Made by a program: the position numbers and the translations under genes. Positions 5,110 to 50,964 of a stretch of 64,000 nucleotides of DNA are shown in pieces. The notes beneath the pieces were generated by a model. It saw only the letters and a list, made by a program, of their open reading frames with translations. It was not told the origin of the DNA and searched no databases. Position 1 is the first letter of the stretch. Each line of letters opens with the position of its first letter. Source of the stretch: Chiloscyllium plagiosum (lineage: Eukaryota); NCBI RefSeq assembly GCF_004010195.1, contig NC_057718.1, forward strand, positions 59,755,622 through 59,819,621. Direction: 5' to 3'.

Positions 5110-6045
5110 TGAGTATTGAGAGGAATAAAGGAAGTGTCCACAAGTTTCTGAAGATGGCAAGACAGTTAGACAGAGTTGTAAGGAAGCCTTATGGGATGCA
5201 TTCCTTCAAGGGTTGAGATATTGAAAACAAAAGAAGTGATAAAATGTTGGAACTACATGAGTTACTGATTACGCCATAGCTGGTGTATTATGTCCAGCTC
5301 TGGTCACCATATTACAGAAACAATATAATTGCTTTGGAGGAAGCACAGAAGAGATTTACAGGAATGTTGCCAGGACTAATCAATTTCAGCTATGGAGGAA
5401 AGATTGGAGAAGCTGTGGTTGTTTTCATAAGAACAGAGGAAGCTGAACAATAATTAATCAAAATAATGAAGGGCTTGGTAGAGTACGCATGGAAAATCAT
5501 TTCTCCTGATGGAGGGATCAATAACAGATTTAAGAGTGATTAGTAGAAGGATTGCAGAGGGTACTAGAAAATGTCATGACCCAGAGAGTGATTGGTATTT
5601 GGAATTTGCTATCTAATTTGGTGGTTGAGATGGAAATTGTCAATTGAGATGGAAAATGAACTAGGATTTAATATACCCTCCAAGGCTACAGACCAAGTGC
5701 AGAACAGTGGAGTTTGAATGATAAAAGCAAATTACTGCGGATGCTGGAATCTGAAACCAAAAGACAAAATGCTGGAAAATCTCAGGAGTTCTGGCAGCAT
5801 CTGTAAGAAGAGAAAAGAGCTGATGTTTCGAGTTTAACTGACCATTTGTCACAGCTTTGACAAAGGGTCTGTTAGACTCGAAACATCAGCTCTTTTCTCT
5901 CCTTACAGATGCTGCCAGACCTGCTGAGATTTTCCAGCATTTTCTCTTTTGGTTAGTGGAATTAGAATGGGTGGCTAGTTTGTTTAGCTGACATAAACAT
6001 GATAGGCTAAATAGCCCCCATTGTTCTGTAACTTTTCAATGGTTT
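5110..6045 (+). mobile_element. Old CR1-type LINE 3' portion (RT C-terminus and 3' UTR), interrupted by a PLE palindrome at 5721-5954
   Basis: 'ggtgtattatgtccagctctggtcaccatattacagaaac...gagatttacaggaatgttgccagg' corresponds to the CR1 LEYCVQFWSP..QRRFTRMLPG region seen at 18290-18400. Confidence 0.75.
5721..5954. mobile_element. Penelope-like terminal palindrome (fold-back mini-insertion) with a degenerate hammerhead
   Basis: Inverted arms of about 95 bp centred near 5852. The left arm has an extra about 35-nt tail. TSD agtgga(g/a)tt(t/a)gaatg at 5706-5720 and 5955-5969 (13/15). Motif agct-TTGACAA-agggtc..gactc-GAAA-CATC-agct. Confidence 0.85.
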
Positions 6046-7900
6046 TAAATCCATGCTGGCTCTTCTGTATTAATCACATTTTTCCACACAGCTACAATTC
6101 TATCCTGAATAATTATTTCTATTAAGCTCCCCACAATTGAGGTTAAACTAAATGTTCTGTAATTGCTGGGTTGATCCTTATAACCCTCCTGAACAAGGGA
6201 ATTATGTTTGCACTTCTGGAACCTCTCCTGAGTTTAGTATAACTGAACGAGTATGGCTAGTGCCTCTGCAACTTTCACTCTCGCTTCCCTTGAAATCATT
6301 AGGTGCATCTCATTTAGTCCTGGTGCATTGTCAACTCTATTTAAAGTTATCCAACACTTCCTTCACAATTTTGAATCCATCTTGTGAGAGTCTCAGCCTC
6401 TGTCACAATGACTTGGATAGCTAAAACATTTGTAATCTGTATCTGAAGCACTGTAATTTACAGGGTTATGAACCAGTTGCTGAGAAGTGCAATTAGAATG
6501 GGAAGCTAGTTTATCCAGCTGGAACAGACAGGCTGAATGGCCTGTTTGAGTCCAGCATCTTTTCTATCATTCTAGGGTTCTAAATCCATACTTGCTCTTC
6601 TAATTCAGTTATGACTCAGCCATGCTCTATGCCTGTACGTGTAAATTCCCCCTTTGGTCTCTAAATGGCCCTACTCCTCTTTAGATAATTTCTAATCAAC
6701 TTATTTGCCATAGAAGATTCTGAGATTCCTTTTCATGCTGGCCATCAGACTTTTCTCATTCTTCCTCTTTGCCTCCAATCTGTATTTTCTACCTCCCCTT
6801 TGAACCTTCTCTATTCCTTTAGGTTCTCAATTGCATTTTAAGACAACTGTCATAAACACATCTTTTCTTCGTTAATGTTTTCACAAGAAGCCCTGGATTT
6901 GTATGCCTTGCCTTTCTTTTTGAGGAAGTATATCTTAGCTGTGACCAAACCATTTCATATCTGAAGGTAGCCTCTAATTCAACTATAGTTTTTCCTATTG
7001 GCGCTTTATTGTAACCTTTCTGGCCCAGCTGTATTCTTGCTCCATTGAAACCGACTCTCCTGCTGTCACTTACTCTGGTTGGCCAGTTGTTCATTTGTCT
7101 AATCATATTAAACCTTATGATGCAATTATTACTATCTCCTAAATGTTCCACTGCCACTTGATCTGCTTATAGATTCAGAGAATCATTCAGTGCAGAAAAG
7201 GCCCTTTGGCCCATTGAGTCTATACTTACATAACTACCACTAAATTTCCTGCATTTGACCTATTTCCATACTTCATTTACTGATTTCTTACACAGCTTCC
7301 CAAATTCTGATTGCAGGACCACATCCCTCTCATTGATACCAGTGTGAACCATGCTGTTCATCCTCCCCAGAAGGACATCCTGCAACCACTGTCTGACATC
7401 ATTGACTTTGATACTACCATCCTGGAGTCAGCTCTACAGCCACAGAAATGCCTGTCTGTTCCCCGTAGGTACTGAATTTTCCATGGCAATAGCTCTTCCA
7501 GTTTTCTTTCACCAAGTTCTCATACTTCTACAACCCTGGCTCTGACTGCACTCTCTTAAAAAACCAGAGCCCCCATCAGCTTCCAAAATAGAAAACCAAT
7601 TTGTGACTGGGACTCAAGGGGACTGCTGTTTCTCTTGAACTGCCTGGCTGCTATCATTTCTCTTTCTGCCTCCATGCACTTAAGCTGTTGTGTGACCACC
7701 ACTCTGGACCTGCTATTCAGGGGGGGCTCTCAGATTTGCAGAGGTCTCACAGTGACACCATTAGTTCTGAAATCCTGAGCTATATTCTCTGCAGTAGGCA
7801 ACACTTCCTGCATGGATGGTCATCGAAGACAGTGGTATGCTTATTGACTTCCCACATATGACAGGTCAAGCATCTTACTGAACTGGGCTGCACTGCCCTA
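6046..7900 (-). mobile_element. Highly decayed CR1-type LINE (ORF2 and probable ORF1 remnants), with a short plus-strand CR1 3' end at about 6430-6582
   Basis: Minus strand includes ..SQHGF.. and endonuclease-like 'VEHLGDSNNCIIRF' (ORF 6819-7157). Confidence 0.55.
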
Positions 7901-8186
7901 TCTTAAATTTATTTCTCTTACTTTATCTTTACTTATATTTATTATCGTGGTGCTGACTTTCCATTATTCCTGGTGTTCTCAGTTAAATCCAAGTACAGCT
8001 ACTTCTTTAAAAATAATGAATTTCTCTTATTTACAGCAACTTAGAAGAAAATTCCTAATTGCTTACTAACTAATTAACTAGGACTAAGGATTAATGTACT
8101 AAGGACGTTTCAAAGTGAAAAGGTAAGAGGGTGTGTTGAAAGGAGCTGTCAGGGCATTTAAAAGTCATGCCTGAAAAATTTAACAT

Positions 8187-8616
8187 GGGGTGGCATGGTG
8201 GCTCAGTGGTTAGCACTGCTGCCTCACAGCACCAGGGGCCTGGGCTCGATTCCAGCCTCAGGTGACTGTCTGTGTGCATATTCTCCCAATATTTGCGTGG
8301 GTTTCCTCCCACAGTCCAAATATGAGCAGGTTAGGTGAATTGGCCATGCTAAATTGCCCACAGTGTCCAGGGATGTGCAGGTTAGGTGCATTAGTCAGGG
8401 GAAATGTAGAGTAATAGGGTAGGGGAATGGGTCTGGGTGGGAATCTAATCTAAACTAAATTGCCCACAGTGTCCAGGGATGTGCAGGTTAGGTGCATTAG
8501 TCAGGGAAAATGTAGAGTAATAGGGTAGGGGAATGGGTCTGGGAGGGATACTCTTCGGGGGATCAGTGTGGACCTGTTGGGCTGAATTACCTGGTTCCAC
8601 ACTGTAGGGATTCTAT
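8187..8616 (+). mobile_element. HE1-type tRNA-derived V-SINE with an internal about 89-bp tandem duplication
   Basis: A-box-like 'tggctcagtggttagcactgctgcctcacagc', B-box-like 'gctcgattcc', V-domain-like 'gtgggtttcctcccacagtccaaa', and a CR1-like 3' end. 8349-8437 is repeated at 8455-8543. Confidence 0.9.
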
Positions 8617-49812: not shown

Positions 49813-50252
49813 AGGGTTGTTGTGTTGCATTGATAGTGTCCTACCTCTGAGCCAGGAGGCCTGGTTTCAAGTCCCACCTGGTGGAGAGGTGTCAAGTAAC
49901 ATCTCAGAGCAAGTTGATGAGAAAATGTGCAGAAACGTTAAGTTAATCAGGGCTCTTGTAGTACAGTGGCAGTGTCCCTCCCTCTGAGCTGAAATATCTG
50001 GGTTCAAATCCACTTGAAGTTCAGGGTATTATTGAATAGGTTGACATAGAAAAAGAACAAAACAAAATTCCTTGGCTATAATTCACTTTGGGACTCCCCA
50101 AGGTCATTAAAGTTGCTGCATAAATATAAATTCTTCCTTAATAGAAGGACTCTTGTAGCGCAGTAGTAGTGTCATTACCTCTGAATTAGGAGGTCTAATT
50201 TCAAAGCCCTCTTGCTCTAGAGGTGTGAAATAACATCTTGGTTGATTATGAA
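49813..50252 (+). mobile_element. Cluster of three short tRNA-derived SINE-like units (about 49813-49926, 49950-50050, 50147-50252)
   Basis: Each reads ggg/actcttgtag..cagtggtagtgtc..cctctgag....gg..tgg(g/t)ttcaa.tcc (A/B-box-like); same orientation. Confidence 0.65.
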
Positions 50253-50750
50253 GTACCTAGAAATATGAAAATACAAACTTCCTTTTGACTATTGTTTTAT
50301 GTGGCTATGCACTGCAGCCAATGTTAAGTGCTCTGTCTAATGGCTGTGTGCATGAGCTGGGGGATACAATCATTAGAGAGGGCCAAATGTCTGGTCAGAA
50401 TTATATTGACAAATAGTGGAGATATCAGGCTCTAAAGTGCTCTGACACAGCATCGGAATCCAGGAGAGTGGGTGCAAATGGTGCCAAAGACTAGGCCCTA
50501 GGAGAAGGGAGTGAAATCAGTGCTAATTATGCCCTAACCCAATCCCATGCCTTCAGAAGGTCCAGGCTTGGACAGCACCAAACCACTCTCAACTGGCTTC
50601 ATGCACTTGCAAATGAGTCACATCTAGGCCAAGACTAGGTAAATATGATTAATCTTCCTTAAAAGGTACCATTGAAACTGTTAGATGTTTATGGCAATCT
50701 GATATCTTTAGCGTGGTGCCTCTTGACCTCTCAAAGAAATTTTTAAATGA

Positions 50751-50964
50751 ATGAAAGTTTGCTTGCTGAGCTGGAAGGTTCATTTTCAGATATTTTGTCA
50801 ACCTACTAGGTAACATCATCAGTGAGCCTCCAGTGCTTCACTGGAAGCTCACTGATGATGTTACCTAGTAAGGTGACGAAATGTATGAAAATGAACCTTC
50901 CAGCTCAGCGAGCAAACTTACATCTAGAACCTCAACCTGAGCTGCAAATCTTCCCAAAACTTGC
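50751..50964. mobile_element. Penelope-like terminal palindrome (another family) with a 3-nt loop
   Basis: Arms 50751-50835 and 50839-50923, loop ctt. The right arm has an extra about 40-nt tail. Confidence 0.85.
50849..50888 (+). ncRNA. Minimal hammerhead ribozyme motif
   Basis: tca-CTGATGA-t-GTTACC-tagtaa-GGTGAC-GAAA-TGTA-tga. Helix I is tca/tga, helix II has 6 bp (one G-U), and the core is intact. Confidence 0.72.

What the first reader, a model, noticed from the sequence alone, without database searches (positions are those of the whole stretch)
5721..50964. Multi-family set of hammerhead-centred, fold-back Penelope mini-insertions with 14-15 bp TSDs
Seen: seven short palindromic insertions of about 170-235 bp (5721-5954, 11215-11435, 15129-15321, 22859-23082, 24307-24517, 45763-45930, 50751-50964) plus single-arm copies (9142, 39459, 40372). 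They come from at least four families, two of which share no obvious primary sequence with the others. They have one architecture: inverted arms, a CUGANGA/stem II/GAAA/NUH motif or its decayed form near the centre, one arm longer, and flanking direct repeats (perfect 14, 15, 14 and 14 bp in the youngest). Established: PLEs carry minimal hammerheads in their pseudo-LTRs, and these repeats can be inverted. Inference: these act as a non-coding, ribozyme-bearing, MITE-looking retro-mobilised class at about 1 per 6 kb. They are either a stereotyped abortive PLE integration product or independently mobile units.
Basis: partly seen in the sequence, partly recalled or inferred. Interest (0 to 1): 0.8.

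Follow-up and report, generated by a model that had tools for sequence, protein, structure and literature searches.

The report
Palindromic Penelope retroelement insertion stubs
The seven small hairpin-shaped insertions are real, but they are head-to-head pairs of the hammerhead-bearing end of Penelope-like jumping genes, each with its own centre and one arm about 35-40 bases longer, likely built afresh at every landing rather than a new self-copying element.

Summary
All seven palindromes are real. Perfect 14/15/14/14-bp target duplications flank E3, E4, E5 and single arm S2; E7 has none. It ties the minis to a Neptune-type Penelope-like element (PLE). All 7 centre junctions differ. In 8 of 8 inverted pairs exactly one arm carries the 34-41-nt PLE 'tail'. 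Public contigs from three organisms show 549 joint rows and no master junction among the 15 shown; copy starts pile 4-5 nt upstream of the hammerhead core, not at its cut site. Best reading: de novo two-primer insertion products, likely run-off copies from the RNA 5' end. The architecture is published (PMC3846280, PMC8557442, PMC4209133, PMC11167929), and this scan already reported it on other DNA of this genome. Only 3 of 19 arms keep an intact ribozyme motif. Unit mobility is not supported. A possible cap-derived G at the boundary is a lead only.

The parts
5721..5954 (.). E1, family B palindrome; tailed arm left (34-nt overhang), symmetric centre on a 4-nt palindrome at -4..-1 of the core; TSD 5706-5720 / 5955-5969 (15 bp, 2 mismatches)
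5853..5896 (+). Near-intact minimal hammerhead motif of E1's right arm, U3-A8 core variant (core starts 5857)
   Evidence: variant described in PMC4209133
9142..9385 (-). S1, family B tailed single arm continuing upstream into an internally deleted RT-EN linker/endonuclease remnant; upstream end approximate; no TSD found
   Evidence: pairwise E 5e-06 to P0001
11215..11435 (.). E2, older family B palindrome; tailed arm right starts at -4, tailless arm stops inside stem II; TSD 11204-11214 / 11436-11446 (11 bp, 1 mismatch)
15129..15321 (.). E3, family A; tailless left arm reaches about -2, tailed right arm starts about +36 and lacks the hammerhead core; short filler at the centre; perfect 14-bp TSD 15115-15128 / 15322-15335
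15895..16971 (-). Left, tailless arm of long inverted PLE insertion L: pLTR, 3' UTR, GIY-YIG remnant, RT C-terminal remnant; TSD copy 15880-15894
   Evidence: (PF01541 E 3.2e-05)
17459..18851 (+). LINE fragment (RVT_1 hit; CR1-type by recalled likeness) and other sequence in the centre of L, next to an assembly gap at 17254-17450
18852..19967 (+). Right, tailed arm of L: RT C-terminal remnant, decayed CX4CxxC linker, GIY-YIG remnant, 3' UTR, hammerhead (C3 = 19840), tail; TSD copy 19968-19982 (15 bp, 2 mismatches); arms 905/1102 identical
19835..19836 (+). Boundary where family A copies begin in contigs and reads (-5/-4 of the core); 19836 is the A of an initiator-like TCATTCC
   Evidence: tables 2, 5, 7; initiator consensus recalled
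22859..23082 (.). E4, family A (L subfamily), inserted in a LINE; symmetric centre at -4, 36-nt overhang right; perfect 15-bp TSD 22844-22858 / 23083-23097; paralogous empty site at about 39239-38986
24307..24517 (.). E5, family A; tailed left arm stops at +8, one extra G at 24423, tailless right arm starts at -4; perfect 14-bp TSD 24293-24306 / 24518-24531
39455..39547 (+). S2, family A tailless single arm starting at -1 with 4-nt overlap with its TSD; perfect 14-bp TSD 39445-39458 / 39548-39561
40372..40471 (-). S3, family B tailless single arm starting about -5; possible 9-bp TSD 40363 / 40472 (1 mismatch)
45763..45933 (.). E6, family C; intact hammerhead motif in right arm (core 45880, arm starts -3), tailed left arm stops at about +11; overhang 74 nt; 10-bp TSD 45753 / 45934
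50751..50964 (.). E7, family D; both arms reach about -13, 41-nt overhang right, near-intact motif (core 50852), ATG inside the motif opens a frame through the whole long arm; no TSD found

Best explanation
The palindromes are two copies of the hammerhead-bearing terminal repeat of endonuclease-positive Penelope-like elements joined head to head, each with its own centre and exactly one tailed arm, and they are likely built anew at each insertion by two-primer reverse transcription that likely runs off the 5' end of the element's RNA. Steps: (1) inferred, about 0.6: the element RNA starts about 4 nt upstream of the hammerhead core, at an initiator-like site. (2) inferred from the TSDs and from PMC11167929: the protein nicks both target strands about 14-15 nt apart. 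(3) inferred from PMC11167929 and the arm ends: each 3'-OH primes cDNA inside the RNA, one at each of two start sites 34-41 nt apart, giving a tailless and a tailed arm; because 8 of 8 pairs are mixed, the two primings are likely coupled, for example on one RNA held by a dimer. (4) inferred: priming in the 5' repeat gives 90-135-nt run-off cDNAs; priming in the downstream repeat of a tandem transcript gives long arms such as L. (5) inferred: the two cDNA ends are joined through 0-4 nt of microhomology or filler, so one arm usually keeps the -4 boundary and the partner is trimmed to a variable point. The ribozyme motif is copied through uncut and then decays.
For: Same pLTR, inverted long/short arms and a 15-bp TSD bound the 4.1-kb element L, which has a GIY-YIG hit. 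Its nearest proteins are RT + GIY-YIG proteins at 70-73% identity over about half of the query, P0001 with a CX4CxxC linker. 7 of 7 centres differ, including E3 and E5, whose arms are 92-94% alike. 8 of 8 pairs have one tailed and one tailless arm; independent 50:50 choice gives 0.004. The inner-truncated arm is the tailed one in E3, E5, E6 and the tailless one in E2, which fold-back of one cDNA cannot give. 10 of 16 mini arms start at -5..-1, 2 at about -13 (E7), 4 inside; none at the predicted cut site (about +28)., laid on L's long arm: RNA-run depth rises from 94 (19805-19829) to 828 and 1644 in the next two bins, against about 120 at the ORF end. Loose ends at 19835/19836 number 483-574 per row in three DNA runs with consensus agreement 0.30-0.33. 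7 of the 15 joint rows shown are head-to-head, with one end at 19832-19840 and the partner anywhere from 19872 to 19924; the best has 13 contigs of 135,435 laid in X1. Empty site: E4's excised allele aligns without a gap to a paralogous LINE with one TSD copy. Literature: PMC8557442, PMC3846280, PMC4209133, PMC11167929.
Against: The RNA 5' end is not shown. table 6 lists no place where many molecules begin or end, and the RNA reads lie on both strands alike (728 and 915), which looks like passive read-through. Part of the depth step is divergence of the upstream UTR among subfamilies: summed contig depth at the ORF end (2.1-3.6 million in X1) is only 1.5-2.5 times below the bin at 19855-19879 (5.3 million), and the 19835 loose-end consensus is C-rich like a UTR. 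Only 15 of 549 joint rows and 24 of 2,532 loose-end rows were displayed, the tool says some were not counted, and symmetric centres probably collapse in assembly (my inference). Some junctions recur in all three organisms (19835/19873 in 13, 9 and 6 contigs). PMC11167929 saw no difference in start site between strands, so the coupling in step 3 is not shown in vitro. Families C and D are tied to PLEs by architecture only; E7's 41-aa frame found no homologue. E7 has no TSD.
Confidence: 0.82

Rival explanations
1. The single tailed arm is a self-propagating, SINE-like non-autonomous element: it carries its own internal promoter and both RT start sites, is transcribed from stub copies, and the palindrome is regenerated at each landing by a PLE protein in trans.
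For: The arm begins at an initiator-like site and ends at the RT start sites. End-module reads outnumber ORF-end reads about 14-fold in the RNA run. Drosophila Penelope has an internal promoter (PMC2377424, passages), and pLTR sequences sufficed for mobilisation in trans in a rotifer (PMC3846280, passages). Unique centres do not exclude this reading.
Against: Stubs lose all element sequence downstream of the second start site. In vitro the lizard element needed RNA out to +172 while its main start site lay at +111-118 with a 30-40-nt tail (PMC11167929). E4's arms match the ORF-bearing L subfamily (88-92% to L's long arm), so a coding parent exists. No strand-biased stub transcript.
Confidence: 0.1
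2. The whole palindrome transposes as a unit (MITE-like or fold-back retrozyme) from a few master copies.
For: A few inner junctions recur in several contigs and in three organisms (table 5). Symmetric centres such as those of E1 and E4 may be under-sampled in contigs.
Against: 7 of 7 centres unique; 549 joint rows with none dominant among the 15 shown. Two of the three most recurrent partner positions (19872/3 and 19889, not 19885) coincide with short microhomologies to the fixed arm end. TSDs of 14-15 bp, a one-sided tail and single-arm copies do not fit a TIR transposon (recalled). Tailed and tailless arms are truncated in both directions.
Confidence: 0.04
3. The hammerhead itself sets the boundary: its fold, or a splice junction at the 5' edge of helix I, stops or redirects the RT, or seeds fold-back of one cDNA.
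For: The boundary coincides with the 5' edge of helix I in families A, B and C. In D. virilis the intron ends at the 5' end of helix I (PMC4209133). One recurrent partner site is the 3' strand of helix I. PMC3846280 proposes self-priming for inverted junctions.
Against: An RT meets the motif from its 3' side, so a structural block should pile ends at about +33, not -4. A spliced template would put a constant exon before the boundary, but loose-end agreement there is 0.30-0.31. Fold-back of one cDNA cannot give a tailed arm that is the inner-truncated one (E3, E5, E6). Family D stops at about -13, away from its helix I.
Confidence: 0.1
4. The minis are what remains of long inverted insertions such as L after later deletion of their centres.
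For: L shows that long inverted pairs exist and that their centres get disrupted.
Against: Deletion gives no reason for a fixed -4 boundary, single arms (S2, S3) share that boundary, and the youngest minis have perfect TSDs and 93-95% identical arms.
Confidence: 0.03

Closest known systems
Insertion unit of EN+ Penelope-like elements: pLTR, adjacent inverted 5'-truncated copy, one-sided 30-40-bp tail (Craig et al. 2021, PMC8557442; Arkhipova et al. 2013, PMC3846280; passages seen)
   Same: Head-to-head inverted terminal repeats, tail on one end only, TSDs, palindromes or microhomology at the inverted junction, GIY-YIG endonuclease in the long copy.
   Different: Both arms are usually cut to 50-135 nt with a fixed inner boundary; TSDs are 14-15 bp against 8-10 bp in the rotifer; density is about 1 per 9 kb.
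[quoted passage not shown]
   Same: CUGANGA or U3-A8 core, extra base between 9 and 10.1, G10.1-C11.1, no real helix III, short helix I. That paper already notes dual motifs about 100-700 bp apart on opposite strands and dispersed single motifs related to truncated PLEs.
   Different: I saw no shark data in the parts read; here most motifs are decayed and sit on opposite strands, so the dimeric fold within one transcript is unavailable.
Poseidon element of Anolis carolinensis in vitro (Frangieh et al. 2024, PMC11167929; parts 1-2 of 4 read)
   Same: Both strands nicked and extended, two internal RT start sites bounding the tail, uncut ribozyme RNA is the main template; family D also has an ATG inside the motif.
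   Different: Family A looks Neptune-type (CX4CxxC linker). The parts read do not treat inverted pairs or a fixed 5' boundary, and report no strand difference in start site, whereas here 8 of 8 pairs are mixed.
Non-LTR retrozymes (Li, Clavereau, Pollet 2026, bioRxiv 10.64898/2026.07.22.740005; parts 1-2 of 5 read)
   Same: Non-coding, type I hammerhead-bearing, pLTR-related dispersed repeats in vertebrates including one chondrichthyan.
   Different: Defined as head-to-tail tandem repeats with a motif in each unit; the elements here are head-to-head pairs or singles.
MITEs (recalled)
   Same: Short, non-coding, palindromic, TSD-flanked.
   Different: Unequal outer ends, variable centres, 14-15-bp TSDs and a retroelement parent.

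Membership tests
EN+ Penelope-like element insertions | C-terminal GIY-YIG endonuclease in the parent ORF | tested here: met
   PF01541 E 3.2e-05 in L; L shares the pLTR of family A. Family B: weak linker match in S1.
EN+ Penelope-like element insertions | Telomerase-like RT core in the same ORF | tested here: inconclusive
   L is truncated downstream of the core; homologue P0001 has a weak RVT_1 hit (E 0.0077) plus GIY-YIG. No RT tree built.
EN+ Penelope-like element insertions | pLTR with adjacent inverted 5'-truncated copy | tested here: met
   8 inverted pairs.
EN+ Penelope-like element insertions | 30-40-bp tail at one end only | tested here: met
   Overhangs of 34-41 nt in E1-E5 and E7, 36 nt in L; E6 74 nt.
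EN+ Penelope-like element insertions | Insertion with TSD, single copy at the empty site | tested here: met
   TSDs in 6 of 7 minis and L; paralogous empty sites for E4 and E1.
EN+ Penelope-like element insertions | Link of families C and D to a coding PLE | tested here: inconclusive
   No coding parent in the window; E7 frame finds no homologue in a search the tool calls weak evidence.
Neptune clade | CX2-5CxxC linker between RT and EN (PMC8557442) | tested here: met
   Decayed in both L arms, intact as CX4CxxC in homologue P0001; the feature is shared with Nematis, so clade is not fixed.
Minimal type I hammerhead | Core boxes, helix II with G10.1-C11.1, short helix I, UH triplet | tested here: met
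   3 of 19 arms pass the descriptor, null mean 0.23; helix II differs in sequence across four families yet pairs. Rfam gave no hammerhead match at E up to 1.
Minimal type I hammerhead | Self-cleavage | not testable with these tools
   No pile of RNA ends listed table 6; that library cannot settle it.
Non-LTR retrozyme | Two or more head-to-tail units, each with a complete motif | tested here: not met
   All pairs in the window are head to head.
MITE / unit-mobile palindrome | Copies uniform across the centre, equal terminal inverted repeats | tested here: not met
   7 of 7 centres unique, outer ends unequal; 549 joint rows.

The most novel reading that the evidence does not exclude
The stubs are capped-transcript run-off products, a PLE counterpart of strong-stop DNA: one RNA held by a protein dimer is primed twice in overlap, the cap is sometimes copied as an extra G, and the roughly 130-nt tailed arm has become a self-sufficient Pol II-driven, SINE-like parasite that rebuilds its palindrome at each insertion. 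Hundreds of thousands of such junctions would then be a fossil record of the unsolved second half of the PLE integration cycle.
Probability: 0.12. Interest if true: 0.65.

Novelty: new member of a known kind. Interest (0 to 1): 0.3.

Why it matters
As a class it is known: inverted, tailed, truncated PLE insertions with minimal hammerheads. What is useful is the constraint it puts on a mechanism that PMC11167929 leaves open after first-strand priming: one tailed and one tailless arm in every pair, a fixed inner boundary just upstream of the ribozyme, 14-15-nt nick stagger, and copying through the uncut ribozyme. These are directly testable in the existing in vitro system. It also warns that such repeats can be mis-annotated as MITEs or miRNA hairpins (13 of 14 Rfam matches were miRNA models, all below their gathering scores). 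I found no paper stating the fixed boundary or a two-primer origin for PLE palindromes in searches, but the library lacks most subscription journals and Repbase entries, and bioRxiv supplements are closed.

Tried and rejected
No whole genome is held, so no assembly-wide census of junctions or TSDs. The family A motif found 0 matches in metagenome and viral contigs. Rfam gave only sub-threshold hairpin matches and no hammerhead family. E7's 41-aa frame found no homologue among longer proteins. No RNA holder was listed for the unique flank. The one RNA run laid (about 2 in 100 of it read) showed no begin/end peak; it is a poly(A) single-cell library and says nothing on caps or cleavage. A-to-I editing: A>G plus T>C places were 85 of 364 in the RNA run and 56 of 218 in DNA run X1, no excess. 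The helix between arm and tail appears in the minimum-energy fold of most long arms, but z-scores are -0.2 to -1.95 in 8 of 8 folds, not significant. Orthologous empty site for L: organisms B and C carry L's tail on the same flank (table 8, records 16 and 24), so it predates their split. Cleavage site as boundary: rejected, 0 of 16 mini arms start there. A branch-point stop at 19836 was considered and dropped: no pyrimidine tract or fitting acceptor follows. A search for papers on cap copying returned nothing relevant, so that point rests on recall. Of 20 DNA holders listed, three were laid.

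
Full report
Observation. The seven palindromes are present as described. Eight of the 11 inverted pairs found in the window belong to them, so the set is not a selection from a larger pool. 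Perfect duplications of 14, 15, 14 and 14 bp flank E3 (15129-15321), E4 (22859-23082), E5 (24307-24517) and the single arm S2; 1 of 299 random zone pairs scores as high. E1, E2, E6 and S3 have shorter or mismatched duplications that are weak on score but abut the arm ends; E7 and S1 have none. Families A and B share a core at about 72%, while E6 and E7 are unrelated to them in sequence. A minimal-hammerhead descriptor hits 3 places in the window, all in arms (3 of 19 arms), against a null mean of 0.23. One hit, in E1, has the U3-A8 core variant described for PLE motifs in PMC4209133. The remaining arms are decayed or truncated inside the motif.

The missing piece. Self-comparison shows a long inverted pair at 15895-16971 and 18852-19967 (905 of 1102 columns identical). 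It ends in the family A repeat, has one tailless and one tailed arm, and is flanked by a 15-bp duplication with 2 mismatches. Its left arm has a GIY-YIG hit. The best homologues are named by their source as Chiloscyllium punctatum proteins, at 70-73% identity over about half of the query. P0001 has weak RT and GIY-YIG hits and a CX4CxxC linker, the Neptune/Nematis feature in PMC8557442. The centre holds a LINE fragment and an assembly gap. The minis are therefore the short end of a size range of ordinary PLE insertions. S1 likewise runs upstream into a linker remnant, which ties family B in weakly. Families C and D are tied in by architecture only (one search found nothing).

Insertion test. 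Removing E4 and one duplication restores a gapless alignment to a paralogous LINE copy at about 39239-38986 (254 columns, 71%; gapless across the site). E1 gives the same result against 6471-6601, with only 14 nt aligned upstream of the duplication.

Anatomy. Outer ends: in 8 of 8 pairs one arm stops at an inner site and the other runs 34-41 nt further (E6 74 nt). This is the PLE tail, which PMC11167929 maps between two internal RT start sites in an enzyme that nicks and extends both strands and uses uncut ribozyme RNA. Independent 50:50 choice of site would give 8 mixed pairs with probability 0.004, so the two primings look coupled; that step is inference. Inner ends, counted from core position 3: 10 of 16 mini arms start at -5 to -1, both E7 arms at about -13, four inside (+8, +11, about +20, about +36), none at the predicted cut site near +28. 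Every palindrome has at least one arm at the boundary. All 7 centres differ, even between E3 and E5, whose arms are 92-94% alike. The inner-truncated arm is the tailed one in three cases and the tailless one in one, which needs two separately primed cDNAs.

Beyond the window. I laid four runs on 19480-20200 at 80% likeness: DNA contigs of organisms A, B and C, and one RNA run of A. X1 may be the source of this DNA. Each DNA run laid 121,000-135,000 contigs. RNA-run depth goes from 94 just upstream of the boundary to 828, 1644 and 2159 in the next three bins, against about 120 at the ORF end. Summed contig depth shows the same step but is high again at the ORF end, so UTR divergence explains part of it, and the tool states that it is no copy number. 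Loose ends pile at 19835 and 19836 with low consensus agreement. The 19836 rows in B and C are A/T-rich and end in G; the 19835 rows are C-rich; the RNA row at 19836 ends in T; no 19836 row for X1 was displayed. Of 549 joint rows 15 were shown: 7 head-to-head with one end at 19832-19840 and the partner at 19872-19924, 2 tail-to-tail, 6 skips. The best head-to-head junction has 13, 9 and 6 contigs. Two of the three most recurrent partner sites match short microhomologies. This argues against a master palindrome, with the limits that most rows were hidden, some joints were not counted, and symmetric centres probably collapse in assembly.

Why -4. Position 19836 is the A of TCATTCC, and family B has TCAGTTC with its A at -4 in S1. 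Both fit the initiator consensus as I recall it. Drosophila Penelope uses an internal promoter (PMC2377424, passages). E5's boundary arm is preceded by one extra G, as expected if a cap was copied (recalled behaviour of retroelement RTs; one search found no paper). S3 and E2 are compatible with this, E1 and E4 are not. The RNA run cannot confirm a start: no begin/end peak, both strands equal. So run-off from the transcript start is the likeliest cause (about 0.6) and cap copying a lead (about 0.35). A structural block predicts ends on the 3' side of the motif, and a splice junction predicts a constant upstream exon; neither is seen.

Comparison. PMC8557442 describes 5'-truncated copies with an adjacent inverted copy and a one-sided 30-40-bp tail as typical of PLEs (passages). 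PMC3846280 describes inverted pLTRs, TSDs, microhomology and palindromes at the junction (passages). PMC4209133 reports dual minimal motifs on opposite strands 100-700 bp apart and dispersed singles from truncated PLEs. Non-LTR retrozymes are head-to-tail and do not fit. I read no supplements; those of PMC11167929 (genomic end maps) and PMC4209133 may bear on the boundary claim. Earlier notes of this scan reached the same reading on other pieces of this genome, including the boundary; I had written my reading before seeing them and do not count them as support.

Verdict. Real, correctly spotted, and of a known kind. A separate mobile class is not supported. The residue of interest is mechanistic: strict pairing of tailed with tailless arms, a fixed inner boundary seen in three organisms, and a possible cap signature. 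Interest 0.3.

Noticed in passing
window 15895-19967: 4.1-kb inverted PLE insertion with GIY-YIG remnants in both arms; both arms stop within about 15 nt of the same ORF position; centre invaded by a LINE fragment beside an assembly gap; shared with organisms B and C at its right end.
   Followed up: yes
table 5, joints 19910/19964 and 19931/19964: Tail-to-tail joints (tailed end meeting a tailless end in reverse) in 21 and 10 contigs of X1 and in B and C, as frequent as any one head-to-head junction: tandem palindromes or insertion at an element's own end. Unexplained.
   Followed up: no
table 5c, 19964 to 19934: Joints that return from the tail end to the tail start, suggesting tandem duplication of the tail alone in some copies.
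   Followed up: no
window 19883-19891 with 19942-19950; counterparts in families B, C, D: In all four families the tail holds a 7-11-nt segment complementary to the arm upstream of the inner end site, so a stem would enclose that site; whole-arm folding z-scores are not significant.
   Followed up: partly
window 5857-5863: Both E1 arms keep A at core position 8 and the right arm has U at position 3, the compensated U3-A8 hammerhead variant, so this is not simple decay.
   Followed up: partly
window 50855-50977: ATG inside E7's motif opens a 41-codon frame through the whole long arm, as in the lizard Poseidon element; no homologue found.
   Followed up: partly
window 45931-45943: E6's tailless arm is about 37 nt shorter than expected and its TSD only 10 bp, with AAA between: likely a later deletion or a third start site.
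   Followed up: no
window 8349-8548 and 32296-32590: A 94-bp near-perfect direct duplication (98%) and a 30-bp-period tandem repeat with open frames on both strands.
   Followed up: no
window 26954-27313 (-): 119-aa frame that looks like a decayed LTR-retrotransposon pol fragment by recall; no Pfam hit at E 0.1.
   Followed up: no
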